From Pseudomonadota bacterium (GTDB lineage Bacteria > Pseudomonadota > Gammaproteobacteria > Eutrophobiales > Eutrophobiaceae): a stretch of 64,000 nucleotides of DNA. The first letter of the stretch is position 1. Every line of letters starts with the position of its first letter. Under the pieces are notes generated by a model. It searched no databases. It worked only from the letters and a program-made list of their open reading frames with translations, and had not been told where the DNA came from. Location: assembly GCA_013112535.1 (NCBI GenBank), contig JABFGI010000001.1:581243-645242 (forward strand). The letters are read 5' to 3'. Position numbers and translations under genes: made by a program. Shown here one piece after another: positions 4,833 to 21,400 of the stretch.

Positions 4833-5276
4833 ATGAAAATATTATCTTTTACAATGCTCTCGATTCTATCTTTCTCATTACATGCTGTAGAATTCCATAG
4901 CTGTACTGATAATAACGGTCAGACTCATTTTACAAATTTACCACTAACCAGTCTCAATTCTAACTGTACGCCAAAAGATTATTATTCAGAAATACTTAAT
5001 CAAGACTACCAAAACCTGTCTAATGAGTATGCAAAGTACGATAATCATTCAGAAAAAGAGGGTGACGATACATCCGAACTCTTTGAAATTGGGAAAATTG
5101 ATATTTCATCCGGTACTCTAAGCAATAAAGTTCAGGATATCTTTGACCCAGATAAAGCTTTACAAGAATTAATGGAATCTACTGAGAATCGTGATGATGC
5201 CTTTACCAGAGCTATGAGAGGTCGTGCCAAGGGGATACAATCGATAATCGATCAAGAAAACATTAAAAAGCCATAA
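4833..5276 (+). CDS. Secreted DUF4124-like hypothetical protein (longer ORF from 4797)
   Basis: Signal peptide MKILSFTMLSILSFSLHA, followed by a DUF4124-like motif (HSCTDNNGQTHFTNLP). Confidence 0.45.
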   Translation: MKILSFTMLSILSFSLHAVEFHSCTDNNGQTHFTNLPLTSLNSNCTPKDYYSEILNQDYQNLSNEYAKYDNHSEKEGDDTSELFEIGKIDISSGTLSNKVQDIFDPDKALQELMESTENRDDAFTRAMRGRAKGIQSIIDQENIKKP

Positions 5277-5293
5277 TAATCAAAAAGATAGGG

Positions 5294-5309
5294 CTATCTA
5301 GCTATATAC
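5294..5309. repeat. 16-bp direct repeat CTATCTAGCT(A/G)(T/G)ATAC, copy 1 (copy 2 at 5614-5629), flanking the MCP remnant
   Basis: 14/16 identical, 320 bp apart. Confidence 0.35.
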
Positions 5310-5541
5310 TATTTCCAAATTGCTCGACTAAATTATGCAATCGTTTTATTTCCTGATCCACATTATTGCTAGCTTCAGTAATCATTTGTGTTCCTTTTAC
5401 AGTATGTTCTGAAAGCTCACTGATTTGCATCATATTTACATTTATTTCTTCAGATACAACACTTTGTTCTTCTGCGGCTGTCGAGATTTGTGCTGACATC
5501 TGTGTAATGACATTTACTATAGAAAGAGCATCCTTATTCAA
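5302..5541 (-). pseudogene. Remnant of a methyl-accepting chemotaxis protein (C-terminal signalling-domain fragment only, 79 aa)
   Basis: MCP signalling-domain C-terminal motifs STAAEEQS...EEIN...I(S)EL; no sensor, TM or HAMP region upstream; flanked by 16-bp direct repeats. Confidence 0.6.
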
Positions 5542-5675
5542 TGAATAGACTTAAATATCCTGCATGATCTATCGTCAAACTAAAGAAACACTTTGAAATA
5601 TAAATGCTTAAGACTATCTAGCTGGATACGAATAGAACTTTACTTGTGGGCTATGCTACATTATTAACTGCGCAT

Positions 5676-5696
5676 AATATATATTATGTTAAATAG
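5676..5696. repeat. 21-bp perfect direct repeat AATATATATTATGTTAAATAG (left copy; right copy at 7370-7390), a candidate attL/attR
   Basis: Exact 21/21 identity. The two copies bracket the integrase gene plus one small ORF. Confidence 0.55.
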
Positions 5697-5778
5697 AATT
5701 AATATACACTTTGTAGGATAAAACGAAGCCTAATCAAAGGTTTAGCGGCTCACTAGGAGCACCCATTACTACATTGTT

Positions 5779-6726
5779 ATGTTAAAAAGTCATTATCGTA
5801 AAATTTCTGATAAAGACGCCCTATTATTGTTCGATAAATATCAACAACGAATAGGACGTTCAAACAGCACACGTCGAGGGTATCAATCCCACTTGGTGTA
5901 CTGGTCAACATTTGTCGACGATCTATTACACCCTTCACGCAATGATCTCCATCGCTGGTTGGCCGATCGTCGGTGCCAAATTAGTCAATCGAGTTTGAAT
6001 GGCCAACTGAGTGCGCTTCGTCAGTTTTATCGCTGGCTGTATGAATTTAAATATTGTGTTTCGGATTTCAGTCCATACATCCCTAAACCGGGACGAATCA
6101 AACGCCTGGCAGAGCCACGGCACCTGACACCCTTTGAATTGGGCTGTTTGTTGGCTGCGCCCGATATGACCACTTTGGTTGGTTTTCGTGATCACGTCAT
6201 GATGCGTCTGATGTATGAAACAGGACTGAAATCGTATGAATTGATTACGTTGACGTTCTACAGTATCGAAGAGATCGGATTTATTCGTATTTATACAGCC
6301 GGGCTTCGTGATTTCCGTTATGTCCCGATATCGGAAGAAATGTCGAATTTGATCAAAATATGGGTCGATATACGTCGTACAACTATACCTCGACGCATTG
6401 ATATTTTGTTTGTGACGAATAAAGGCAAGCCCTTTTCGAGTTCGAACAGTATCTGGATCATTGTGAATCGCTATGTTCAAGCCGCTTTGGGACTCAGAAG
6501 AGGTTATGACACCCTGCTTCGCACTCATAAAAATGTCCCTTGGAGTCACGAGTCCCCACATCTTTTTCGTGCGAGTTTTGCGCATCATCTTTTGCAATCG
6601 GGTTGTGATTTGATTGCCGTTCGAGACATGATGGGACACGTCGATGTCAAAACCACGATGACGTATCTGGGGATAGATCTGGATTATATTAAGCAAGAGC
6701 ATGCGAAATTATTTATGAATTGCTAA
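5779..6726 (+). CDS. Tyrosine-type site-specific recombinase / phage integrase family (XerC/D-like)
   Basis: N-terminal SAM-like core-binding domain. C-terminal catalytic box ...LFRASFAHHLLQSGCDLIAVRDMMGHVDVKTTMTYLGI (R...HxxR...H...Y). Confidence 0.85.
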   Translation: MLKSHYRKISDKDALLLFDKYQQRIGRSNSTRRGYQSHLVYWSTFVDDLLHPSRNDLHRWLADRRCQISQSSLNGQLSALRQFYRWLYEFKYCVSDFSPYIPKPGRIKRLAEPRHLTPFELGCLLAAPDMTTLVGFRDHVMMRLMYETGLKSYELITLTFYSIEEIGFIRIYTAGLRDFRYVPISEEMSNLIKIWVDIRRTTIPRRIDILFVTNKGKPFSSSNSIWIIVNRYVQAALGLRRGYDTLLRTHKNVPWSHESPHLFRASFAHHLLQSGCDLIAVRDMMGHVDVKTTMTYLGIDLDYIKQEHAKLFMNC

Positions 6727-7245
6727 ATCGGCTTCACATATATTTTTAAGCTCATCAACTGCTTCATCTAACTTTCTAAGTACCTCTTCTTTTGTTTTAT
6801 CAATTGAAATTCCATCTCTAATTTTTATGAGTAAATCTGACATAGCTAAAATGGTTAAACAATGAAAACCAAAATCATCACTATCATTGAATAAAAACTC
6901 TGCACCAGCAGTCTTAGCCATAAATTCAGCTCTATCATCATTAGTAATGAAATTTGGTATATGTTTAATTTGAAATGCATACGAATTAATAGCGCCATAA
7001 ATTTCATATCGCTTTTCAAACATTTCATACTTTAATCGTGATTGATTAATCTGTAATTGTTTGCGAGCTAAATAGACACCAATAAGTCCAATTATCAATG
7101 GGATAGAAATATTTGATGCAAGCTGAATATAATCAAATACAGATGCACTTGATTGGGGAAAAGAAGTTACCGCGATTTCGTGCGTGACCGTTTCATATGG
7201 TGTCTTCCATTCGTTCGGAAGATATTCAATTGTTTCATAAGCCAT
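6709..7245 (-). CDS. Hypothetical single-pass membrane protein, convergent with the integrase
   Basis: 178-aa ORF with one hydrophobic helix (ISIPLIIGLIGVYLA); no recognisable family. Confidence 0.35.
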   Translation of the reverse strand: MAYETIEYLPNEWKTPYETVTHEIAVTSFPQSSASVFDYIQLASNISIPLIIGLIGVYLARKQLQINQSRLKYEMFEKRYEIYGAINSYAFQIKHIPNFITNDDRAEFMAKTAGAEFLFNDSDDFGFHCLTILAMSDLLIKIRDGISIDKTKEEVLRKLDEAVDELKNICEADLAIHK

Positions 7246-7369
7246 CTAACTTCTCCTTATTATTAGATCCTGTTTTCTTTATATCTGAAAACTTTACTAA
7301 TAATAACTGTTATTGTTAAATAACCCCTTTGAAAGCCGCTAAATATCTAATTTATATAGCAAAAATCCC

Positions 7370-7390
7370 AATATATATTATGTTAAATAG
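7370..7390. repeat. Right copy of the 21-bp direct repeat AATATATATTATGTTAAATAG
   Basis: Exact match to 5676-5696. Confidence 0.55.
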
Positions 7391-8455
7391 CTAATTGATA
7401 TGGTTAAAGAGAAACCCTAACAGTAATATTTGCGGCAAAGTGACCAGCGGTAAGAATAAAGGAATAATCCAACGACCTGTTGTGTCTTTAAGTACCATGA
7501 TCTCGGTGTAATCCGTTGCGACGCCTGCCATAAGAAACGTAAAACTATTACCAGGTGCATTTGCGCGCGTAAGTAAATCTGCAGAGATTGGTACTGACCC
7601 TTCTGAACACACTTCGATGACGGTTGCAGCCAGCAACGTTAATGCTAAACCGATTAAAGATGGCCCAAAATAAGTCTGGAAAAATTCAAGACTGACAAAG
7701 GTTCTGATTAATGATGCCAGAATAATCCCGAGAAATATCCAGCGTAAAACCATGCGTGAATCTTTTACGCCCTGTAAAAGCATTTTTGATAACCATGGAA
7801 ATGTAAAATTGAATCTTTTAAGTGCCAGTTTTGATTGTGCAATTATTTTAAAGTCTTCTGGTATATCAACGCGGTTTGGATTATCTGGTAATACATTCCG
7901 TTTGACCAATAATTCAAAAATTAATCCCGAGATAATGCCTATCAGCATGGATGCTATAAGAAATACAATCATCCATTTAAAGCCAATTAATGCCCAGAGA
8001 ATTAGCGTTAATGAAAATGAGTTCCATGGACTGGCAATTAAAAAAGCCATAACTTGTCCTGTACTAGCGCCTTTTTGGTAAAGTTTAGAACCGACCATTA
8101 ATATGCCGTGGCTACATAGATCGAGTAATACACCGGCAAATGTTGCTCGAATAACCCCACCTATTCCATCTTTACGGCCTAACAAAGCAATAATAAATTC
8201 CCGGGGTATTTGCCCTAAAAGCGCTATAAATAAAATACCAATGAGAATTCCCCAATACATGGTATTAATAAGGGTAAAACTGGATTCTACAAACGACTTT
8301 AAGTAAGGTGATGCTCCAAAAATTGATTCTGGTAATAAATTGAAAAGATAAGCGATGATAATTATCGATGATGTACTAATTAATAAATAATCGCGTTTAT
8401 TACCTGTTTCATGACAGGATTGTTTTGGTTCTTCTTTGTGGCAACAGTTACTCAT
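7391..8455 (-). CDS. Predicted permease (COG0701/DUF318-like multi-TM protein)
   Basis: 354 aa, about 8-10 hydrophobic helices, Cys-rich N-terminus (MSNCCHKE...SCHE), motif EVCSEGSVPI reminiscent of DUF318 permeases. Confidence 0.45.
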   Translation of the reverse strand: MSNCCHKEEPKQSCHETGNKRDYLLISTSSIIIIAYLFNLLPESIFGASPYLKSFVESSFTLINTMYWGILIGILFIALLGQIPREFIIALLGRKDGIGGVIRATFAGVLLDLCSHGILMVGSKLYQKGASTGQVMAFLIASPWNSFSLTLILWALIGFKWMIVFLIASMLIGIISGLIFELLVKRNVLPDNPNRVDIPEDFKIIAQSKLALKRFNFTFPWLSKMLLQGVKDSRMVLRWIFLGIILASLIRTFVSLEFFQTYFGPSLIGLALTLLAATVIEVCSEGSVPISADLLTRANAPGNSFTFLMAGVATDYTEIMVLKDTTGRWIIPLFLPLVTLPQILLLGFLFNHIN

Positions 8456-14712: not shown

Positions 14713-15006
14713 CTAATGATGAGTCGGTATACGCTCCATTTTTTGATACACGCGTTTATTTTCTTGCTCTAATTGCCAGAGTTTCAAGTTTGTTTGCATG
14801 CCTTTCCAGAAACGAGGGCTACTACCCAACACGCGACTTAACCGAATCGCGATATCTTCCGTAACATCACCACGTTCATTCACCACTTTCGACATGGTAT
14901 TACGAGCCACACCGCAACGCTTTGCCAACTCACTAATCGTCAAACCTGTTTCAGGCAAGATTACATTACGAATTAATGCACCAGGGTGTGAAGGTTTACG
15001 TGTCAT
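14713..15006 (-). CDS. higA: HigA antitoxin (XRE-type HTH)
   Basis: HTH ISELAKRCGVARNTMSKVVN, 97 aa; start overlaps the higB stop by 1 nt (TAATG). Confidence 0.8.
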   Translation of the reverse strand: MTRKPSHPGALIRNVILPETGLTISELAKRCGVARNTMSKVVNERGDVTEDIAIRLSRVLGSSPRFWKGMQTNLKLWQLEQENKRVYQKMERIPTHH

Positions 15007-15293
15007 TAGTGATAATCCTCTAAATTTAAATCTATTACATCATTACCATCCATGCGCCAAGTGATTCGCCAATTTCCAGTAACGCGAACACTGTACTCGC
15101 CCTTGCGTTGACCTTTTAATCCATGAAAATACAAGCCAACGATGTCCATTTCTTCCGCTTTTTCAATCGTATCAAGTGCATCCAGAATAACAATCAGGCG
15201 ATCAGCTATGATCGCACTGATACCTCGTTTATCAGTATATCGTGGGTCGTCGAAAAAACGCTTCAATCCTTTGTGGCGAAACTTTTTAATCAT
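15006..15293 (-). CDS. higB: HigB toxin (RelE/ParE-fold plasmid-maintenance killer family)
   Basis: 95 aa, HigB pattern MIKKFRHKGLKRFF...RGISA; toxin-first order with HigA downstream. Confidence 0.8.
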   Translation of the reverse strand: MIKKFRHKGLKRFFDDPRYTDKRGISAIIADRLIVILDALDTIEKAEEMDIVGLYFHGLKGQRKGEYSVRVTGNWRITWRMDGNDVIDLNLEDYH

Positions 15294-15458: not shown

Positions 15459-18400
15459 TTATGCTGACTGCCACGCTGTGGAAATAACCGATTGCACATC
15501 CTCCTGAAGTGCTTCAGGTACATCGAGTGAACCACAGTGAGAAACATTAAAGACAGCCATCGCATCAACAAGTTGCTGCACATTCGTTTCTAACAATACC
15601 GACCCATCCGATAATTCAATACGTTCAATTCGCGTATCCCTATTACTGTGCCATCCCCAACTCCAACCATGACTGTGTTTATACCAGTCTTCTATCGTCA
15701 CTTGATCTTCTGTACCGATAATGCCGATATTCAAATCTTTATGATCGCGCCAAAGCCATAAATCGTCTGCCCCGATACTTTCGCCAAAACGTAATGTGTC
15801 TTCACCCGCGTTTTCTTCTATCTCATCAACATCATCACCGCGGTTAAAGAGGTAAGTATCATTACCACGGCCACCTTCAATAACGTCATCACCAGTACCA
15901 CCGTGCAAGATGTCATTACCGCCATCACTGAAGAGCCAGTCGTGACCCGCTCCGCCTTCGTGTATGTCATCACCGGCACCGCTGTAAAGAGCATCATCTC
16001 CTTCGCCACCACTTAAAGTGTTGTTGCCGTACCAGTCTTCGAGCACATCATTACCACTGCCGCCATTTAGAGCATCATCACCCTGACCACCTAGTATCCA
16101 GTCACGACCTGCATTGCCATTCAGGATATTGTTACCAAACCATTCTTGTAAGTGATCGTTACCATTACCGCCATTAAGTACATCATCACCTGAATTACCA
16201 AAGAGCCAGTCATGTCCATTACCGCCGTTGAGAGTATCATTGCCATCGCCACCATGAAGATGGTCGTTGCTACCTCCGCCATTAAGTATATCATTCCCGT
16301 CTTCGCCAAAGAGCCAGTCAGGACGATTAAAACCATTGATAATATCTTTCTCATCTGTCCCCAGCAGAAAGTTAGAGTGATTATTACCGTTAATGACATT
16401 GGTGATATCGAGAGTAAAGGAATCACTAACACTTAACCCTTCGATATCAGTAACCGTCACTTTAATATCAAGCAGTCCGGATACATCGAATGGGACATTA
16501 CCACTGAAAGTTCGGGTTGCAGCATCAAAGCTTAACCACGCTGGTAAGGCACTACCGTCATTTAAGCTTGCTGTGTAACGTAAGGTGTCCCCATGAATAA
16601 AGTCATCATCATCGAAAATATCAGAGGGAAGTTGGTAACTAAAGCTAACACCTTCTATTGTTGCCTGATCATCAACTGGATTTGCCAACACTGGATTATC
16701 GTTAACATTGTTAATCACCACTCTAAATTCATCATCAGTACTCAATCCAGCACTGTCTGTTGCTGTGACTTTGATATCAAGATTCCCGACATCATCATTA
16801 TCAGGGGTGCCACTGAAGGTTTGGGTTGCCGCATCAAACGTTAACCAACCCGGTAAGTTACTATCATCAGAGAGTGACGCGCTATAATTTAAGGTGTCGT
16901 TTGCATCGTCCACATCATCAAAGGTGTTTGCGGGGATTGTGAAACTGAACGGTGCATCTTCATCGATAACCTGATCGGTAATCACATTGCTCAGTGTTGG
17001 TGTATCGTTCGTCCCGTTAATGGTGATTTGAACGGTGCTCGCTGTACCGTCGACACTGCTTGCATTAAACGTTTCACTAACACTGTCACCGACATTTAAA
17101 CTATCAAACGACTCGTTCGCATTAAACGTCCAGTTACCTGCTACATCAATATCAAACGTACCGATGGCGCCAACGGTATTACTTGCGGTGAACACATTGT
17201 CCTCGTTATCCACATCACTACTGGTTAATGTTCCAGCTGTTGTCAGCACTGCATCAGTTTCATTTAAAGTTTCAACGGCATTGCTGACGGTTGCAGCGTC
17301 ATTAACATTATTAACAGTCAAGCTGAATTCATCGCTGACACTGTGACCGCCTGTATCAGTTACTGTTACTTTGACCTCAATATTATCAACATCATCATTC
17401 ACGGGTGTGCCACTAAAGGTTTGTGTGGCTGCATCAAAACTTAACCAACTCGGCAATGCAGAATCATCACTTAATGTGGCGTTGTATATTAATGTATCGC
17501 CAACATCCGGATCACTAAACGTATTCGCTGGTATTGTAAATGAAAAAACGTGATCTTCATCTGTTGCTTGATCCGATATCCCTGCATCGACGAAAGGGGC
17601 ATTATTGATATTTGTGTTTCCATTAATAGTGAGACGAAATGACTCATCGACACTTAAGCCGCCAGCATCCGTTGCTATCACATTAATTTCAATAACGCCC
17701 ACATCGTTATCATCTGGAGTGCCGTTAAAGGTTTGTGTTGCAGCATCAAAGCTTAGCCAATCTGGTAATACTTCGCCGTTTTTTAATGTCGCTGTATAAG
17801 ACAATGCATTACCTGACTCTGGATCGATAAAGGCATCATCAGGAATAACATAACTAAAAATAGCATCCTCATCGACAACCTGGTTTTCTAGTCCGGTATT
17901 AACACCAGGAGCGAGATTTATATCATTACCACTAATCAGTCCTTCAATATCATCATTATTGAGCGTAAGAGCGTTGTCACCTGTAAATATAAATTGTTCA
18001 ATAACAGCATTGGAATCATCAAACCAGCCCGTCACGGTAACCGTCTGACCAGCGCCAAAAGAAAGAATTAAATCATCGCCCGATTGACTAACATTTAAAT
18101 CAGTTACAGATAATCCTTCCCCAAAGAAAACGCGATCAAAACCACCTACTTCTAATATCGTATCGTGACCATCATTAGCATTAATAATATAGGTGTCATC
18201 ACCAACGCCACCTTCAAGATGGTCATTTCCAGTGTTTCCTATAATTATATCGTTTCCTTCTCCACCTATAACAATATCGTTTCCTTCGCCGCCATCCAGT
18301 TCATCATCGCCTTCGCCACCATCAAGTGTGTCATTACCAGCAAAGCCGTTTATACGATCGACGATTTCTGTACCATTTAATTCATCGTCACCTGCTGTAC

Positions 18401-21400
18401 CATCAAAACCAAAACCTAAATCCAGAACATCCTGATAAGTCAGAGTAAAACTGTCATTAAACGTAATACGTTCAAATAAATCAGGAATACCAGATAAGTC
18501 ATTGGTGTCAACATCAGTAAAATACAATTGAATTTGTCCATCAAAAATATCGATAATTAAAGAACCTCTGTGTATGGAAATATCACTGCGAGTAACGTGT
18601 TTCTTTGTATAAATATCAAACGCATTAATACCGTGAAACGAAGATGGCAGAAGAAGCGTATACCGTCCTTTTGAAGCAGTATAGGGATTAGATTGAGAAC
18701 CAATTTTTACTGTATTTAAACTGCTGCTGGACGTTTGAATAGTATAATTTCGGTTGATGTTTTGTTCCCCGGAAAGATTGATAACATTTTCACCTGAACC
18801 GGCATTAATAATCGCAGTTTCGACATCACCGACATTAATAATGTCATTGCCATCAAGCGTAAAGATTTTTTGATCACTTTCTACTACATCAACAATGTCA
18901 CTTTCATTACTACCCAAGACGTCAATTTCATTTCGAAAATCCTTGCCATAAACCAGGTAGCTTTCACCGTTATTAAGATTAGCTCCCGCAGCACTAACAA
19001 GTAAATCATCAAAACCATCACCATTAACATCTCCGGCAGCACTGACAACGCTTCCACTTTGGTCTCCGCTAATATTACCGGTTAACTGAAACCCGTTTTG
19101 TCCATCTAGTTCATCTAAATTAACAGAAGTCTGAATACCTCCCTGCTTTCCATATACCAGATAAGAAATACCCACATTATTTTCGCTATTGACTGTTTTA
19201 TCTGACATGCCGATTAAAATATCACTCAGGCCATCACCATTCACATCACCTGCCGCGCTTACAGAAGAAATACTGCCGCCTGATAAACTGAATAATGATA
19301 AAGCGCCTGCACCTAAACTATTAGCATTAACATCAGCAGTAAAATTATTTTCCTTACCATAAATGACATGAGCCGTATTACTGTGATGAACAACAAGCAG
19401 GTCATCAATACCATCACCATTAATATCCCCCACACCTTCTGCACGCATAGTTTCAGCATTTGTCTCATACATTCCGTTTAATCGGAAACCATTGCTGCCA
19501 TCTAGTGAATTAATATCAAATGAATTCGAAAAACCTGTTTGACCAAGAACAACATAGCCTAACGGTAAATTAAATCCGCCTAATGGATCGCGCGGATCAG
19601 GAAGACCGGGTACGGCTTCAGGCGCATAAACAAAAAGATCATCCAGACCATCGTTGTTGATGTCACCAATGTCGGTTACGGTTGTGCCTGTTTCACTGTT
19701 GGCAACATTACCGGAAAAACTAAAACCATTACTGCCATCTAAAACATCAATGTCGATGTTATAACTTGAAAAATCAGATCGACCAAAGACAATAGAAACG
19801 TCACCGGTTGTTCCGTTTGTGTCTGGTGTACCGATGATTACATCATCAAACCCATCTCCATTGATATCACCTGCCCCATCCACCTGAATATTACTGTTAC
19901 TGTTAATCGCATTGCCAGTAAGTACAATTCCTTGATCAGCACTAAGGTTATTCAAGTCTATATCACTACTAAAACCACTCTCATGACCAAATAACACAGC
20001 ACTTTGTCCCGGGTTTAGATCCGAACTCATTCCAATGATTACATCATCAAACCCGTCACCATTCACATCGCCTGCACTTTTTATAGAATTAATCGCTAAA
20101 CTGGAAGAAAAATGAACGCCGTTATTGCCATTCAAATTTGTTAAATCGAATGTTGAATTCAGTTGTTCTTGCTGACCAAAAACCAAATAACTTCCCTGAG
20201 TTTGATTACCTTGTATTAAAACATCATCAAACCCGTCCCCATTGACATCACCCGCAGAGGCTACAGCTTGCCCACCATTTTCAAAAATTACTTCCTGGCT
20301 TAATGAAATCGTCCCCACTACTTCGGTACCGCGTATTGTTAGCGATAAAGTGGAGTTTGATATTTCACCACTGTCATCACTCATAGTGTAATCGACCAAC
20401 ACAGTAGCAACATCACCAGCAATTAAATCAGTAAAATCATTGCCCGGATCAAATTTAAGCTGATTGTTCTCGATTGACACGCTGCCTTTGTTGCCTTGAA
20501 GGGTAACAGTGTCTAATGAAAAATTTGAAACATCATCATCCGGATCGAGATCGGTATCATTAGCAAGCACATCAATTAAAAACGCATTGTTTGCAGCAGC
20601 TGGAAATAATCGTGCAGCTATACCGCCATCAAGGTCACCACTACTGCTTGAACTAGTCTGCCAGACTGCTACCAGACCACCATCGCTGAGTAAGTTAATA
20701 GAAGGTCGCTGTTGGTTATTATCAACAAGTTCATTAACAAGAAACGTGGTAACTTGTCCCTGATCATTAAATCTTGCTGCAATAACAGCAAGATCATCCT
20801 GATCATCACCCTGGTCAGCAAAGCTATTCCAGCTTACAATAAAGCCGTTGTTACTATCAGCAACAACGCTGTAATCCCTGCCAAATAATTCAAAATCAGA
20901 ATTAAGTAATATCGCTTGTCCCTGTGAGATACCTGAACTATTAAATCGTTGACCATAGATATTTTCAGTAGCACTGGAATAAATCCAGGTCACCATATAG
21001 TCGTCACCGGATAAAGCCACGACTTCCGGAGAAATCATTTGCGAAGGCTGAATAGCGACGGATAAAGGGATTTCTCCTGTTAGTGCATTACCTTGATTAT
21101 CATAAAAGCGAGCACTTAAAGGCGTTTCATCTTGTAGTTCAACTGAGATTGGACGATTGTGATCATTCGATTCCCAAACAATGGCAAAGCTGCCATCTGT
21201 TTGCACAGCAACTTTAGGCATATCCTGGTTATCAAATGAAAACGTATTAACTTCAAATTCATTACCCACTTTTACTCCATTCGCATCAAAACGTTGACCG
21301 GCTATTTCACTTTCGGTAGTTGCTCCACCTTCATGTTCTGTCATCCAAACAGCAATAAAACCGCCATCAGGTAAACCAGCAATGTCGATTGATGTTTGAA

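What the first reader, a model, noticed from the sequence alone, without database searches (positions are those of the whole stretch)
5676..7390. 1.7 kb tyrosine-recombinase mini-element bounded by 21-bp perfect direct repeats
AATATATATTATGTTAAATAG occurs exactly twice, 1694 bp apart, enclosing only an XerC/D-like integrase gene and one convergent 178-aa membrane ORF. The repeats are not next to a tRNA. An integrase with only one passenger ORF and perfect att-like repeats is either the smallest form of an integrative element or the residue of a larger island after deletion. The outer flank carries a chemoreceptor gene fragment (5302-5541), suggesting the element landed in or deleted part of an MCP gene.
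Basis: seen in the sequence. Interest (0 to 1): 0.55.

Follow-up and report, generated by a model that had tools for sequence, protein, structure and literature searches.

The report
Mini integrase element parked at dif
The 21-bp repeats are the chromosome's dimer-resolution site (dif) and a half-copy of it, and they bracket a 1.7-kb remnant of a rare family of phages that integrate at dif carrying their own Xer-like recombinase, which here has lost two catalytic residues yet is still kept by selection.

Summary
The 21-mer occurs exactly twice (5676-5696, 7370-7390), against 0 expected by chance. The interpretation needs revising.

- **Left copy:** it lies inside a complete XerCD-type dif site (5667-5694, 25/28 identical to E. 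coli dif).
- **Right copy:** it keeps only the central region and XerD arm. This is the footprint of an element integrated at dif, as with IMEXs.
- **Difference from IMEXs:** this element encodes a Xer-like tyrosine recombinase (5779-6726).
- **Family link to dif:** all ~22 loci examined that encode relatives of this recombinase have a dif-like site 57-400 bp upstream on the same strand. They include 40-kb phage contigs, phage MACPNOA1, and prophages at dif in Xanthomonas, Stenotrophomonas and Luteimonas.
- **Catalytic residues:** the window's protein has Lys for catalytic Arg-I and lacks the beta-hairpin Lys, yet dN/dS is 0.15 against a related mini-element (L006).
- **Third host (L029):** the integrase, the half-dif and a 92%-conserved non-coding arm have all decayed together.
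- **Chemoreceptor fragment:** it is real, but the element did not split it.

Most likely this is a long-resident, miniaturised dif-integrating element. Any movement probably depends on host XerCD. No empty site was found.

The parts
5667..5694 (+). Chromosomal dif site, which is attL of the element. XerC arm ACTGCGCATAA (5667-5677), central region TATATA (5678-5683), XerD arm TTATGTTAAAT (5684-5694).
   Evidence: 25/28 identical to E. coli dif GGTGCGCATAATGTATATTATGTTAAAT (E. coli sequence from PMC3603311). Orthologous full dif sites occur in related hosts L006 (90-117) and L029 (5818-5845, minus strand). GC skew and gene orientation change sign between about 4 and 14 kb.
5676..5696 (+). Left 21-bp direct repeat: the last 2 nt of the XerC arm, the central region, the XerD arm and AG.
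5697..5778 (+). Left (integrase-proximal) arm of the element. It contains the conserved block TTTAGCGGCT...GAGCACCC (5741-5764), whose first 10 nt are the inverted partner of AGCCGCTAAA at 7334-7343.
   Evidence: Inverted repeat I3. The block is conserved in L006 while the rest of the arm is 67% identical.
5779..6726 (+). Int*: a 315-aa Xer-like tyrosine recombinase with no arm-binding domain. Catalytic Arg-I is replaced by Lys151 and the Lys of the beta-hairpin GKG motif is missing. His-II, Arg-II, His-III and Tyr296 are present.
   Evidence: Pfam. Alignment to XerD 1A0P. Family alignments. NCBIfam XerD 137 bits against cutoff 330 and XerC 137 against 335. dN/dS 0.145 against the L006 copy.
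6709..7245 (-). ORF178: a small membrane-anchored protein with one TM helix running into a four-helix bundle. It is the conserved cargo of the mini-element. Function unknown.
   Evidence: Homologues in L006 (182 aa plus a truncated 132-aa copy) and L029 (188 aa). 151 remote relatives, none annotated. AF2 model pLDDT 86. No significant PDB fold match. No Pfam, PHROG, PADLOC or NCBIfam hit.
7246..7346 (.). Highly conserved non-coding right arm. It holds the Shine-Dalgarno sequence and a promoter-like site for ORF178 (7319-7291, minus strand), the palindrome GTTATT-GTTA-AATAAC (7309-7324) and AGCCGCTAAA (7334-7343). It is a candidate regulatory or recombination-accessory region.
   Evidence: 92% identical to L006, against 76% for int, 58% for ORF178 and 76% for the host flank gene. 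Only ~50% identical (no detectable similarity) in L029, where Int* is dead. Promoter-like hit. No Rfam family.
7361..7388 (+). Half-dif (attR). A non-XerC left arm AAAAATCCCAA (3/11 matches to the XerC arm), followed by a central region TATATA and XerD arm TTATGTTAAAT identical to those of dif.
   Evidence: The equivalent site in L006 is CTTTTCCCAAA-TGTATA-TTATGTTGAAT.
7370..7390 (+). Right 21-bp direct repeat. It abuts the stop codon of the ArsP permease gene (7391-8455, minus strand).
5302..5541 (-). Chemoreceptor C-terminal fragment. It lies outside the element, 125 bp to the left of dif, and the element did not split it.

Best explanation
The 1.7-kb unit is a miniaturised, long-resident integrative element sitting at the chromosomal dimer-resolution site dif.

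How it arose: site-specific recombination between dif and a dif-mimicking attP. That attP had a non-XerC left arm, then a central region and XerD arm identical to dif. The product is an intact dif on the left (attL) and a half-dif on the right (attR) that XerC should not bind. Chromosome dimer resolution is therefore preserved and FtsK/XerCD should not readily delete the element. This is the IMEX logic.

Where it differs from IMEXs: the element carries a Xer-like recombinase gene (Int*) right next to the att site. Int* belongs to a rare clade of phage-borne recombinases that are always linked to a dif-like attP.

State of Int*: in this lineage it has lost catalytic Arg-I (now Lys151) and the beta-hairpin Lys, yet it remains under purifying selection. 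Int*, the half-dif and a conserved non-coding arm are kept or lost together. I therefore infer that Int* now works mainly as a site-specific DNA-binding or architectural subunit at the dif-like sites, and that any strand exchange is done by host XerC/XerD.

Shown: site identities, the family-wide link between Int* and dif, the residue losses, the selection signal and the co-decay pattern.
Inferred: who catalyses recombination, and whether the element still moves.
For: 1. dif identity. 5667-5694 is 25/28 identical to E. coli dif. The right copy shares only the central region and XerD arm.
2. Family link. About 22 distinct loci encoding relatives at >=30% identity all carry a dif-like site 57-400 bp upstream on the same strand. 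Integrated copies show a XerC arm (..GCGCATAA). Phage and viral contigs show a different, partly conserved left arm (ACCTAAAACAC, ACCTAAGCCAC, GCCTAAACCAA). Three more distant XerC/D-like loci (24-29% identity) have no such site.
3. Phage origin. Relatives sit in ~40-kb phage-like contigs and prophages, alongside tail, lysis, Mor, SSB, pol III beta and CI genes, and in the isolated phage MACPNOA1.
4. Residue loss. K151 aligns with XerD Arg148 and the GKG motif is absent.
5. Selection. dN/dS is 0.145 against L006.
6. Residence. The L006 element lies beside the ortholog of the window's GT22 gene, with similar divergence (int 76%, host flank gene 76-78%). L029 is syntenic (AsmA, radical SAM) and has dif, a decayed int remnant and an intact ORF188.
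7. Co-maintenance. The right arm is 92% conserved where Int* is present and ~50% where it is dead, and the half-dif has decayed there too.
8. Matching central regions. Both copies in the window carry the lineage-specific central region TATATA, whereas L006 and L029 have TGTATA.
Against: - No empty site and no circular junction was found, so mobility is unproven.
- Because dif is the only target, sharing the same position in related hosts does not by itself prove vertical inheritance.
- The L006 copy carries a 1-nt frameshift, which may be real or an assembly error. L029 has lost the gene. The protein is therefore dispensable in some lineages.
- Host xerC and xerD are not in the window, so their presence is only inferred from the canonical dif.
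- The skew evidence for a terminus is weak, because only 5.7 kb lies to the left of the site, and KOPS counts are too low to use.
- A non-canonical but active catalytic site cannot be excluded.
Confidence: 0.6

Rival explanations
1. Dead relic. The unit is just what a deletion left of a dif-integrated prophage. Int* is a decaying gene with no function, and the repeats persist by chance or because they are young.
For: Two catalytic residues are missing. There is a frameshift in L006 and a near-complete loss in L029. Relatives are 40-kb phages. The element is fixed in all four sequencing runs examined, with no empty site.
Against: dN/dS is 0.145 across a divergence with dS about 1.2. A 101-bp non-coding arm is 92% conserved, more than any coding part. 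The half-dif is 21/21 identical to dif and shares its lineage-specific central-region base. His-II, Arg-II and His-III are kept in all 25 full-length family members that lost the Lys (Tyr in 23 of them; P0347 is a truncated fragment).
Confidence: 0.17
2. Autonomous mini-element. Int* is still a competent recombinase with a non-canonical active site and moves the element by itself, using dif only as a conserved attB.
For: Tyr296, His-II, Arg-II and His-III are retained under selection. There is precedent: in the CTnDOT integrase the missing first Arg is functionally replaced by a downstream Arg (PMC8138268). Int* has Arg177, 26 residues after Lys151, in the hairpin. The repeats are perfect and the central regions match.
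Against: The beta-hairpin Lys is missing as well, and no Lys replaces it. Two family members (P0307, P0315) have also lost the Tyr nucleophile. P0315 lies in a phage-like contig beside a non-XerC dif-like attP. P0307 lies in a prophage integrated at a full dif. In those, catalysis must come from elsewhere. Every attP retains a near-perfect XerD arm, which is more than a self-sufficient integrase would need.
Confidence: 0.13
3. Domesticated dif-associated factor. The host keeps Int*, and perhaps ORF178, for its own benefit. One possibility is that it occupies or modifies the dif region to block other dif-integrating phages or IMEXs. Another is that it modulates Xer recombination.
For: Divergence similar to host genes in two comparisons. 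Purifying selection. Fixed in all four sequencing runs examined. ORF178-type proteins persist even where Int* is lost.
Against: There is no functional evidence. PADLOC gives no hit. Int* was lost in L029 with no visible replacement. The conserved arm plus half-dif looks like a maintained recombination substrate rather than a simple binding site.
Confidence: 0.1

Closest known systems
IMEXs (integrative mobile elements exploiting Xer: CTXphi, VGJphi, TLCphi, dif-type DJR vibriophages, gonococcal genetic island)
   Same: Integrated at chromosomal dif. Flanked by one functional dif and one dif-like site. The attP mimics only part of dif; 'right-armed 17-bp' attPs are described in PMC12715192. A functional dif is regenerated on one side.
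   Different: IMEXs are defined as lacking an endogenous integrase (PMC12715192). This element and its phage relatives encode a Xer-like recombinase next to the att site. The relatives include 40-kb phage-like contigs with tail and lysis genes, not filamentous or DJR phages.
XafT, the Xer activation factor encoded at the end of TLCphi and related IMEXs
   Same: By position and by my proposed role: a small element-encoded factor next to attP that lets host Xer act at dif without FtsK (PMC6744903, PMC9226527 abstracts).
   Different: There is no homology. XafT is not a recombinase fold, whereas Int* is a full Xer-like protein. An activator or adaptor role for Int* is only inferred.
Classical phage integrase/attP modules (lambda, P2, HP1)
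   Same: The integrase gene lies adjacent to attP, and the prophage is bounded by direct repeats of the core.
   Different: Int* has the simple Xer architecture (SAM-like core-binding domain plus catalytic domain, 315 aa) with no arm-binding domain. The target is dif rather than a tRNA or protein-coding gene. About 30% of the family lacks catalytic residues.
Single-recombinase Xer systems with the gene next to the site (XerS/difSL, XerH/difH) and XerT of H. pylori TnPZ
   Same: A Xer-family gene sits immediately beside a dif-type site. XerT is a mobile-element-encoded Xer-like enzyme (PMC5357621; PMC8138268).
   Different: Here dif is the classical two-arm XerCD type. Int* scores far below the XerC, XerD and XerS equivalog cutoffs. 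It is bracketed by duplicated sites and has decayed in a related host, so it is not the host's dimer resolvase. TnPZ does not target dif.
CTnDOT-type integrases lacking the canonical first arginine
   Same: A natural tyrosine recombinase without Arg-I at the usual position (PMC8138268).
   Different: IntDOT keeps the hairpin Lys and has a proven substitute Arg. Int* lacks the Lys too, and some relatives have also lost the Tyr.

Membership tests
IMEX | Integrated at the chromosomal dif site | tested here: met
   The left repeat lies within a 28-bp site 25/28 identical to E. coli dif. Orthologous dif sites occur in L006 and L029.
IMEX | Flanked by dif and a dif-like site in direct orientation, with a functional dif regenerated on one side | tested here: met
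   attL has both arms. attR has only the central region and XerD arm (3/11 matches in the XerC arm).
IMEX | No element-encoded integrase | tested here: not met
   A 315-aa Phage_integrase ORF lies inside the element. The definition is from PMC12715192.
IMEX | Integration and excision catalysed by host XerC/XerD | not testable with these tools
   Only inferred, from the loss of Arg-I and Lys-beta here and the loss of Tyr in relatives. It needs genetics or biochemistry.
XerC / XerD proper | Reaches the NCBIfam equivalog cutoff | tested here: not met
   TIGR02225 XerD 137.3 bits against cutoff 329.6. TIGR02224 XerC 137.1 against 335.15.
Tyrosine recombinase superfamily | Catalytic-domain and core-binding-domain HMM matches | tested here: met
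   PF00589 E 1e-21 and PF02899 E 8e-11. XerD structure 1A0P E 2.9e-21.
Tyrosine recombinase superfamily | Complete catalytic set (Arg-I, Lys-beta, His-II, Arg-II, His/Trp-III, Tyr) | tested here: not met
   Arg-I is Lys151 and the Lys of the GKG motif is absent. His261, Arg264, His287 and Tyr296 are present.
Integron integrase | Reaches the IntI model cutoff | tested here: not met
   TIGR02249 48 bits against cutoff 265, matching only residues 258-296.
tRNA-targeting genomic island | att repeat overlaps the 3' end of a tRNA or tmRNA gene | tested here: not met
   The nearest tRNA genes are at 37.0-40.6 kb.
dif-linked phage Int* clade (defined here) | Clusters with P0003-P0007 apart from XerD, shares the ~16-aa insertion before the HxxR box, and has a dif-like site upstream on the same strand | tested here: met
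   Tree and alignments. Site scans.

The most novel reading that the evidence does not exclude
The Int* clade defines a new class of dif-integrating phages and elements. In this class a phage-encoded Xer paralog, often a pseudo-recombinase lacking Lys-beta, Arg-I or even the Tyr nucleophile, binds the non-XerC arm of a dif-mimicking attP and recruits or activates host XerD/XerC to do the chemistry. It would be a recombinase-fold counterpart of the XafT activation factor. The window's 1.7-kb unit would then be the minimal form of such an element: adaptor, att arms and one cargo gene.
Probability: 0.3. Interest if true: 0.8.

Novelty: new variant of a known kind. Interest (0 to 1): 0.62.

Why it matters
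- dif is known as a landing site for elements that have no integrase. If a whole clade of ~40-kb temperate phage-like elements targets dif with its own Xer paralog, the IMEX concept extends to a new kind of phage and to a new kind of helper protein.
- The family offers a natural series running from fully equipped recombinases to proteins without Lys, Arg or Tyr. That makes the question of how Xer recombinases are activated or partnered directly testable. Culturable hosts are available: X. arboricola, Stenotrophomonas sp. MMGLT7, Luteimonas terrae and Thioalbus denitrificans.
- These genes are annotated as 'XerC', 'XerD' or 'integrase' in databases. That can mislead reconstructions of dimer-resolution systems and prophage boundary calling near the terminus.

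Tried and rejected
- **Empty site.** Look-ups of both flanking proteins found only occupied junctions, in four sequencing runs.
- **Excised circle.** An exact search for the predicted attP junction in viral contigs found nothing.
- **Right-arm motif.** A search of viral contigs gave two hits with no other similarity to the window, taken as chance.
- **Metagenome scans.** The single-protein scan found no relatives. The alignment scan found only phage-type or distant relatives and no further K-type mini-element.
- **ORF178 function.** No hit in Pfam, PHROGs (one weak hit, E 0.004), PADLOC or NCBIfam, and no PDB fold match above noise. The afdb50 library was unavailable.
- **Non-coding RNA.** Rfam gave no hit across 5000-8000.
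- **KOPS polarity.** Only three GGGNAGGG motifs occur in 64 kb, which is uninformative.
- **Second att site of the larger prophages.** Not found within the 10-kb flanks.
- **Integron integrase, true XerC/XerD and tRNA island readings.** Rejected on scores and context.
- **Element split a chemoreceptor gene.** Rejected because the other flank is an ArsP gene end.
- **Literature.** Seven full-text searches found no description of a dif-targeting integrase clade or a dif-adjacent pseudo-recombinase. The library is incomplete, so this is absence of evidence only.
Full report
**1. The observation**

The 21-mer AATATATATTATGTTAAATAG is present exactly twice in the window, at 5676-5696 and 7370-7390. 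Both copies are on the + strand, 1694 bp apart. This holds even when three mismatches are allowed, and no shuffle produced a match. Between the copies lie:
- a 315-aa ORF (5779-6726, +) with Pfam Phage_integrase and Phage_int_SAM_1 domains;
- a convergent 178-aa ORF (6709-7245, -) with no Pfam match.

No tRNA gene is near; the closest are at 37-40 kb. The same structure or its junctions occur in independent assemblies from four sequencing runs.

**2. What the repeats are**

Read with its 5' flank, the left copy is ACTGCGCATAA-TATATA-TTATGTTAAAT (5667-5694). This is 25/28 identical to E. coli dif, GGTGCGCATAA-TGTATA-TTATGTTAAAT (E. coli sequence quoted in PMC3603311). The three parts are the XerC arm, the 6-bp central region and the XerD arm.

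The right copy is AAAAATCCCAA-TATATA-TTATGTTAAAT (7361-7388). Its central region and XerD arm are identical to dif, but its left arm matches the XerC arm at only 3 of 11 positions.

One intact dif plus one half-dif in direct orientation is the signature of elements integrated at dif (IMEXs). The IMEX literature also describes 'right-armed' 17-bp attP mimics (PMC12715192).

GC skew is positive over 1-4 kb and strongly negative from 14 kb. Gene orientation flips from mostly + to uniformly - over the same stretch. This fits a replication terminus but is weak, because only 5.7 kb lies to the left of the site. KOPS motifs are too few to help.

**3. The integrase family is tied to dif**

A word-based search found only six close relatives (40-71% identity) before a drop to ordinary XerD-like proteins at 33%. 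A profile search raised this to 84 clusters at E <= 1e-40, among 5.8 billion proteins. I examined the DNA context of about 22 distinct loci from several sources:

| Source |
|---|
| Assemblies |
| GTDB genomes |
| JGI metagenomes |
| IMG/VR viral contigs |
| Isolated 'Microcystis phage MACPNOA1' |

Every relative above about 30% identity has a dif-like site 57-400 bp upstream of the gene on the same strand. Three more distant XerC/D-like loci, at 24-29% identity, have none.

The sites fall into two groups:
- **Phage or viral genomes.** The left arm is not XerC-like but is partly conserved. Examples are ACCTAAAACAC, ACCTAAGCCAC, GCCTAAACCAA and CCCCGAACAAC.
- **Copies beside host DNA.** The left arm is a XerC arm (..GCGCATAA or ..TCGCATAA), so these are attL junctions of prophages integrated at dif. 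They include X. arboricola, at 2.11 Mb of a 4.58-Mb contig, and also Stenotrophomonas sp. MMGLT7, Lysobacter, Luteimonas terrae and Novilysobacter.

The neighbouring genes are phage genes: tail tape measure, lysis, Mor, SSB, pol III beta, CI repressor, a DGR, further integrases and a resolvase.

The recombinase clusters apart from XerD and shares a ~16-aa insertion before the HxxR box. It scores 137 bits against the XerC and XerD equivalog models, whose cutoffs are 330-335. It is therefore Xer-like but is neither XerC nor XerD. I call it Int*.

**4. The window's copy has an incomplete active site but is under selection**

Aligned to E. coli XerD (1A0P), Lys151 of Int* occupies the position of catalytic Arg148 (YETGLKSYEL against YATGLRVSEL). 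The hairpin reads TAGLRDFR where relatives and XerD have GKG(R/Q)..R, so the catalytic Lys is missing. His261, Arg264, His287 and Tyr296 are present.

Across 87 family sequences:
- the GKG Lys is missing in 26 (25 full-length, plus the truncated fragment P0347);
- Arg-I is replaced in 12 (7 Thr, 3 Lys, 2 Gln), always together with loss of the Lys;
- the Tyr nucleophile is Phe in two (P0307, P0315);
- His-II, Arg-II and His-III are almost invariant.

The tree puts the K-type (window, L006) and a T-type pair (L013, L026) in separate subclades, so the loss was independent.

P0315 lies in a ~40-kb phage-like contig next to a non-XerC dif-like attP. P0307 lies in a prophage integrated at a full dif.

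Between the window and the related mini-element L006, dN/dS for int is 0.145 (dS about 1.2). The K-type protein is therefore maintained by selection. This pattern looks like stepwise pseudo-enzyme evolution rather than random decay.

One caveat applies. In the CTnDOT integrase the missing first Arg is functionally replaced by a downstream Arg (PMC8138268), and Int* has Arg177 in the hairpin. Residual catalysis therefore cannot be excluded.

**5. Comparison across three related hosts**

| Feature | Window | L006 (2.8-kb contig) | L029 (2.85-Mb contig) |
|---|---|---|---|
| dif | intact | intact | intact |
| Int* | intact, K-type | K-type, with a 1-nt frameshift (real or assembly error) | ~240-bp remnant of the 3' end, with a nonsense codon and indels |
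| Cargo ORF | ORF178 | 182-aa homologue plus a truncated 132-aa copy | ORF188, intact |
| Half-dif | 21/21 identical to dif | present, one mismatch in the XerD arm | decayed (best match 6 mismatches in 17) |
| Right-arm block vs window | (reference) | 92% identical | ~50% identical, i.e. no detectable similarity |

Supporting calls: 17, 20, 35, 49, 61, 64, 65, 109.

The L006 right flank is the ortholog of the window's glycosyltransferase-22 gene (76-78% nt identity). Int is 76% identical, so element and host divergence are similar. The ArsP gene that abuts the right repeat in the window is absent from L006. L029 is syntenic with the window through AsmA and radical SAM genes.

In the window-L006 comparison the 101-bp non-coding right arm (7246-7346) is 92% identical. 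It is better conserved than int (76%), ORF178 (58%) or the host flank gene (76%).

Int*, the half-dif and the arm block are thus kept together or lost together.

Both copies in the window also carry the lineage-specific central region TATATA, whereas L006 and L029 have TGTATA. This implies either selection for matching central regions or gene conversion between the two sites. Either would be expected if the sites still recombine.

No empty site and no circular junction was found, so present-day mobility is not shown.

**6. The cargo ORF and the chemoreceptor fragment**

ORF178 models confidently (pLDDT 86) as one TM helix continuing into a four-helix bundle. It has 151 remote relatives of about 150 aa, none annotated. 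It has no Pfam, PADLOC or NCBIfam hit, only one weak PHROGs hit (E 0.004), and no PDB fold match. Its function is unknown. It is not found next to the phage-borne relatives in the flanks examined.

The ORF at 5302-5541 is a genuine C-terminal chemoreceptor remnant. The element did not split it, because the DNA beyond the right repeat is the 3' end of the ArsP gene. An imperfect 21-bp repeat (17/21) brackets the fragment. I did not explain this.

**7. Mechanism and comparison with known systems**

The shown facts fit integration by recombination between dif and a dif-mimicking attP, leaving a working dif and a XerC-blind half-dif. That is how IMEXs work. However, IMEXs are defined by having no integrase (PMC12715192). 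This element therefore fails that membership criterion while behaving like one.

It also differs from classical phage Int/att modules. It has no arm-binding domain, its target is dif, and the family often lacks catalytic residues. It differs from XerS- or XerH-type systems because dif is the two-arm type and the gene decays in a related host.

My best reading (confidence 0.6): this is a long-resident, miniaturised derivative of dif-targeting phages. Its Int* now serves mainly as a DNA-binding or architectural partner, and host XerC/XerD would have to do any strand exchange.

Rivals:
- dead relic (0.17);
- autonomous enzyme with a non-canonical active site (0.13);
- host-domesticated factor (0.10).

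The most novel reading not excluded (about 0.3) is that the whole Int* clade consists of Xer adaptors or activators built on a recombinase fold, defining a new IMEX class among ~40-kb temperate phage-like elements.

Seven literature searches found no prior description of this. A 2021 survey notes only 'a few isolated examples' of element-borne simple recombinases in the Xer subgroup (PMC8138268).

**8. Verdict**

The feature is real. I rate it a new variant of a known kind, with interest 0.62.

Noticed in passing
window 5289-5309 and 5609-5629: An imperfect direct repeat (17/21; TAGGGCTATCTAGCTATATAC and TAAGACTATCTAGCTGGATAC) brackets the chemoreceptor C-terminal fragment. It could mark an older insertion or deletion next to dif, or it could be chance.
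   Followed up: no
window 7391-8455 compared with L006 2402-2544: The ArsP-family permease gene, whose stop codon abuts the right repeat, is absent at the orthologous place in L006. There the half-dif is followed after about 140 bp by the glycosyltransferase-22 gene.
   Followed up: partly
window 5777-5787; L006 about 199-209: A XerD-arm-like 11-mer (TTATGTTAAAA; TTATGTTGAAA in L006) overlaps the int start codon, in the same orientation as the core XerD arm. It may be an accessory or autoregulatory site, or it may only reflect the conserved MLK N-terminus.
   Followed up: partly
L002/L003, L004, L026, L033, L034, L037: The phage relatives share a conserved layout: Mor, a 365-390-aa integrase, a DnaT/HNH or DUF1376 replication gene, the dif-like attP, Int*, small ORFs, pol III beta (sometimes CsrA), a third 315-331-aa integrase, a resolvase and CI. 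That makes up to three tyrosine recombinases plus a serine recombinase per phage. One of the others could be the catalytic partner of Int*.
   Followed up: partly
L018 (KY697807.1, Microcystis phage MACPNOA1) 1954-1981: This isolated phage carries a proteobacterial-type dif mimic (ACCTAAGCCAC-TGTATA-TTATGTCAAAC) upstream of its integrase, which is 46% identical to family member P0005 (31% to the window's Int*). This raises the question of whether its lysogenic host is really a cyanobacterium.
   Followed up: no
L015 (Stenotrophomonas sp. MMGLT7) 16542-18343: The prophage integrated at dif carries a diversity-generating retroelement (reverse transcriptase plus Avd) and a large DNA methyltransferase.
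   Followed up: no
L006 1302-1697 and 1713-2258: The ORF178-type gene is tandemly duplicated in L006, and the int-proximal copy is truncated to 132 aa.
   Followed up: partly
window 14713-15293 and 15459-26705: A HigB/HigA-like toxin-antitoxin pair lies next to a 3748-aa ORF on the minus strand. Both are about 7-9 kb to the right of the element's right end (about 9-10 kb from dif).
   Followed up: no
L029 5856-6030: Beyond dif on the XerC-arm side, L029 has a long AT-dinucleotide-rich tract, followed by genes including CoiA_N and an ANT antirepressor domain. This may be another mobile element abutting dif.
   Followed up: no
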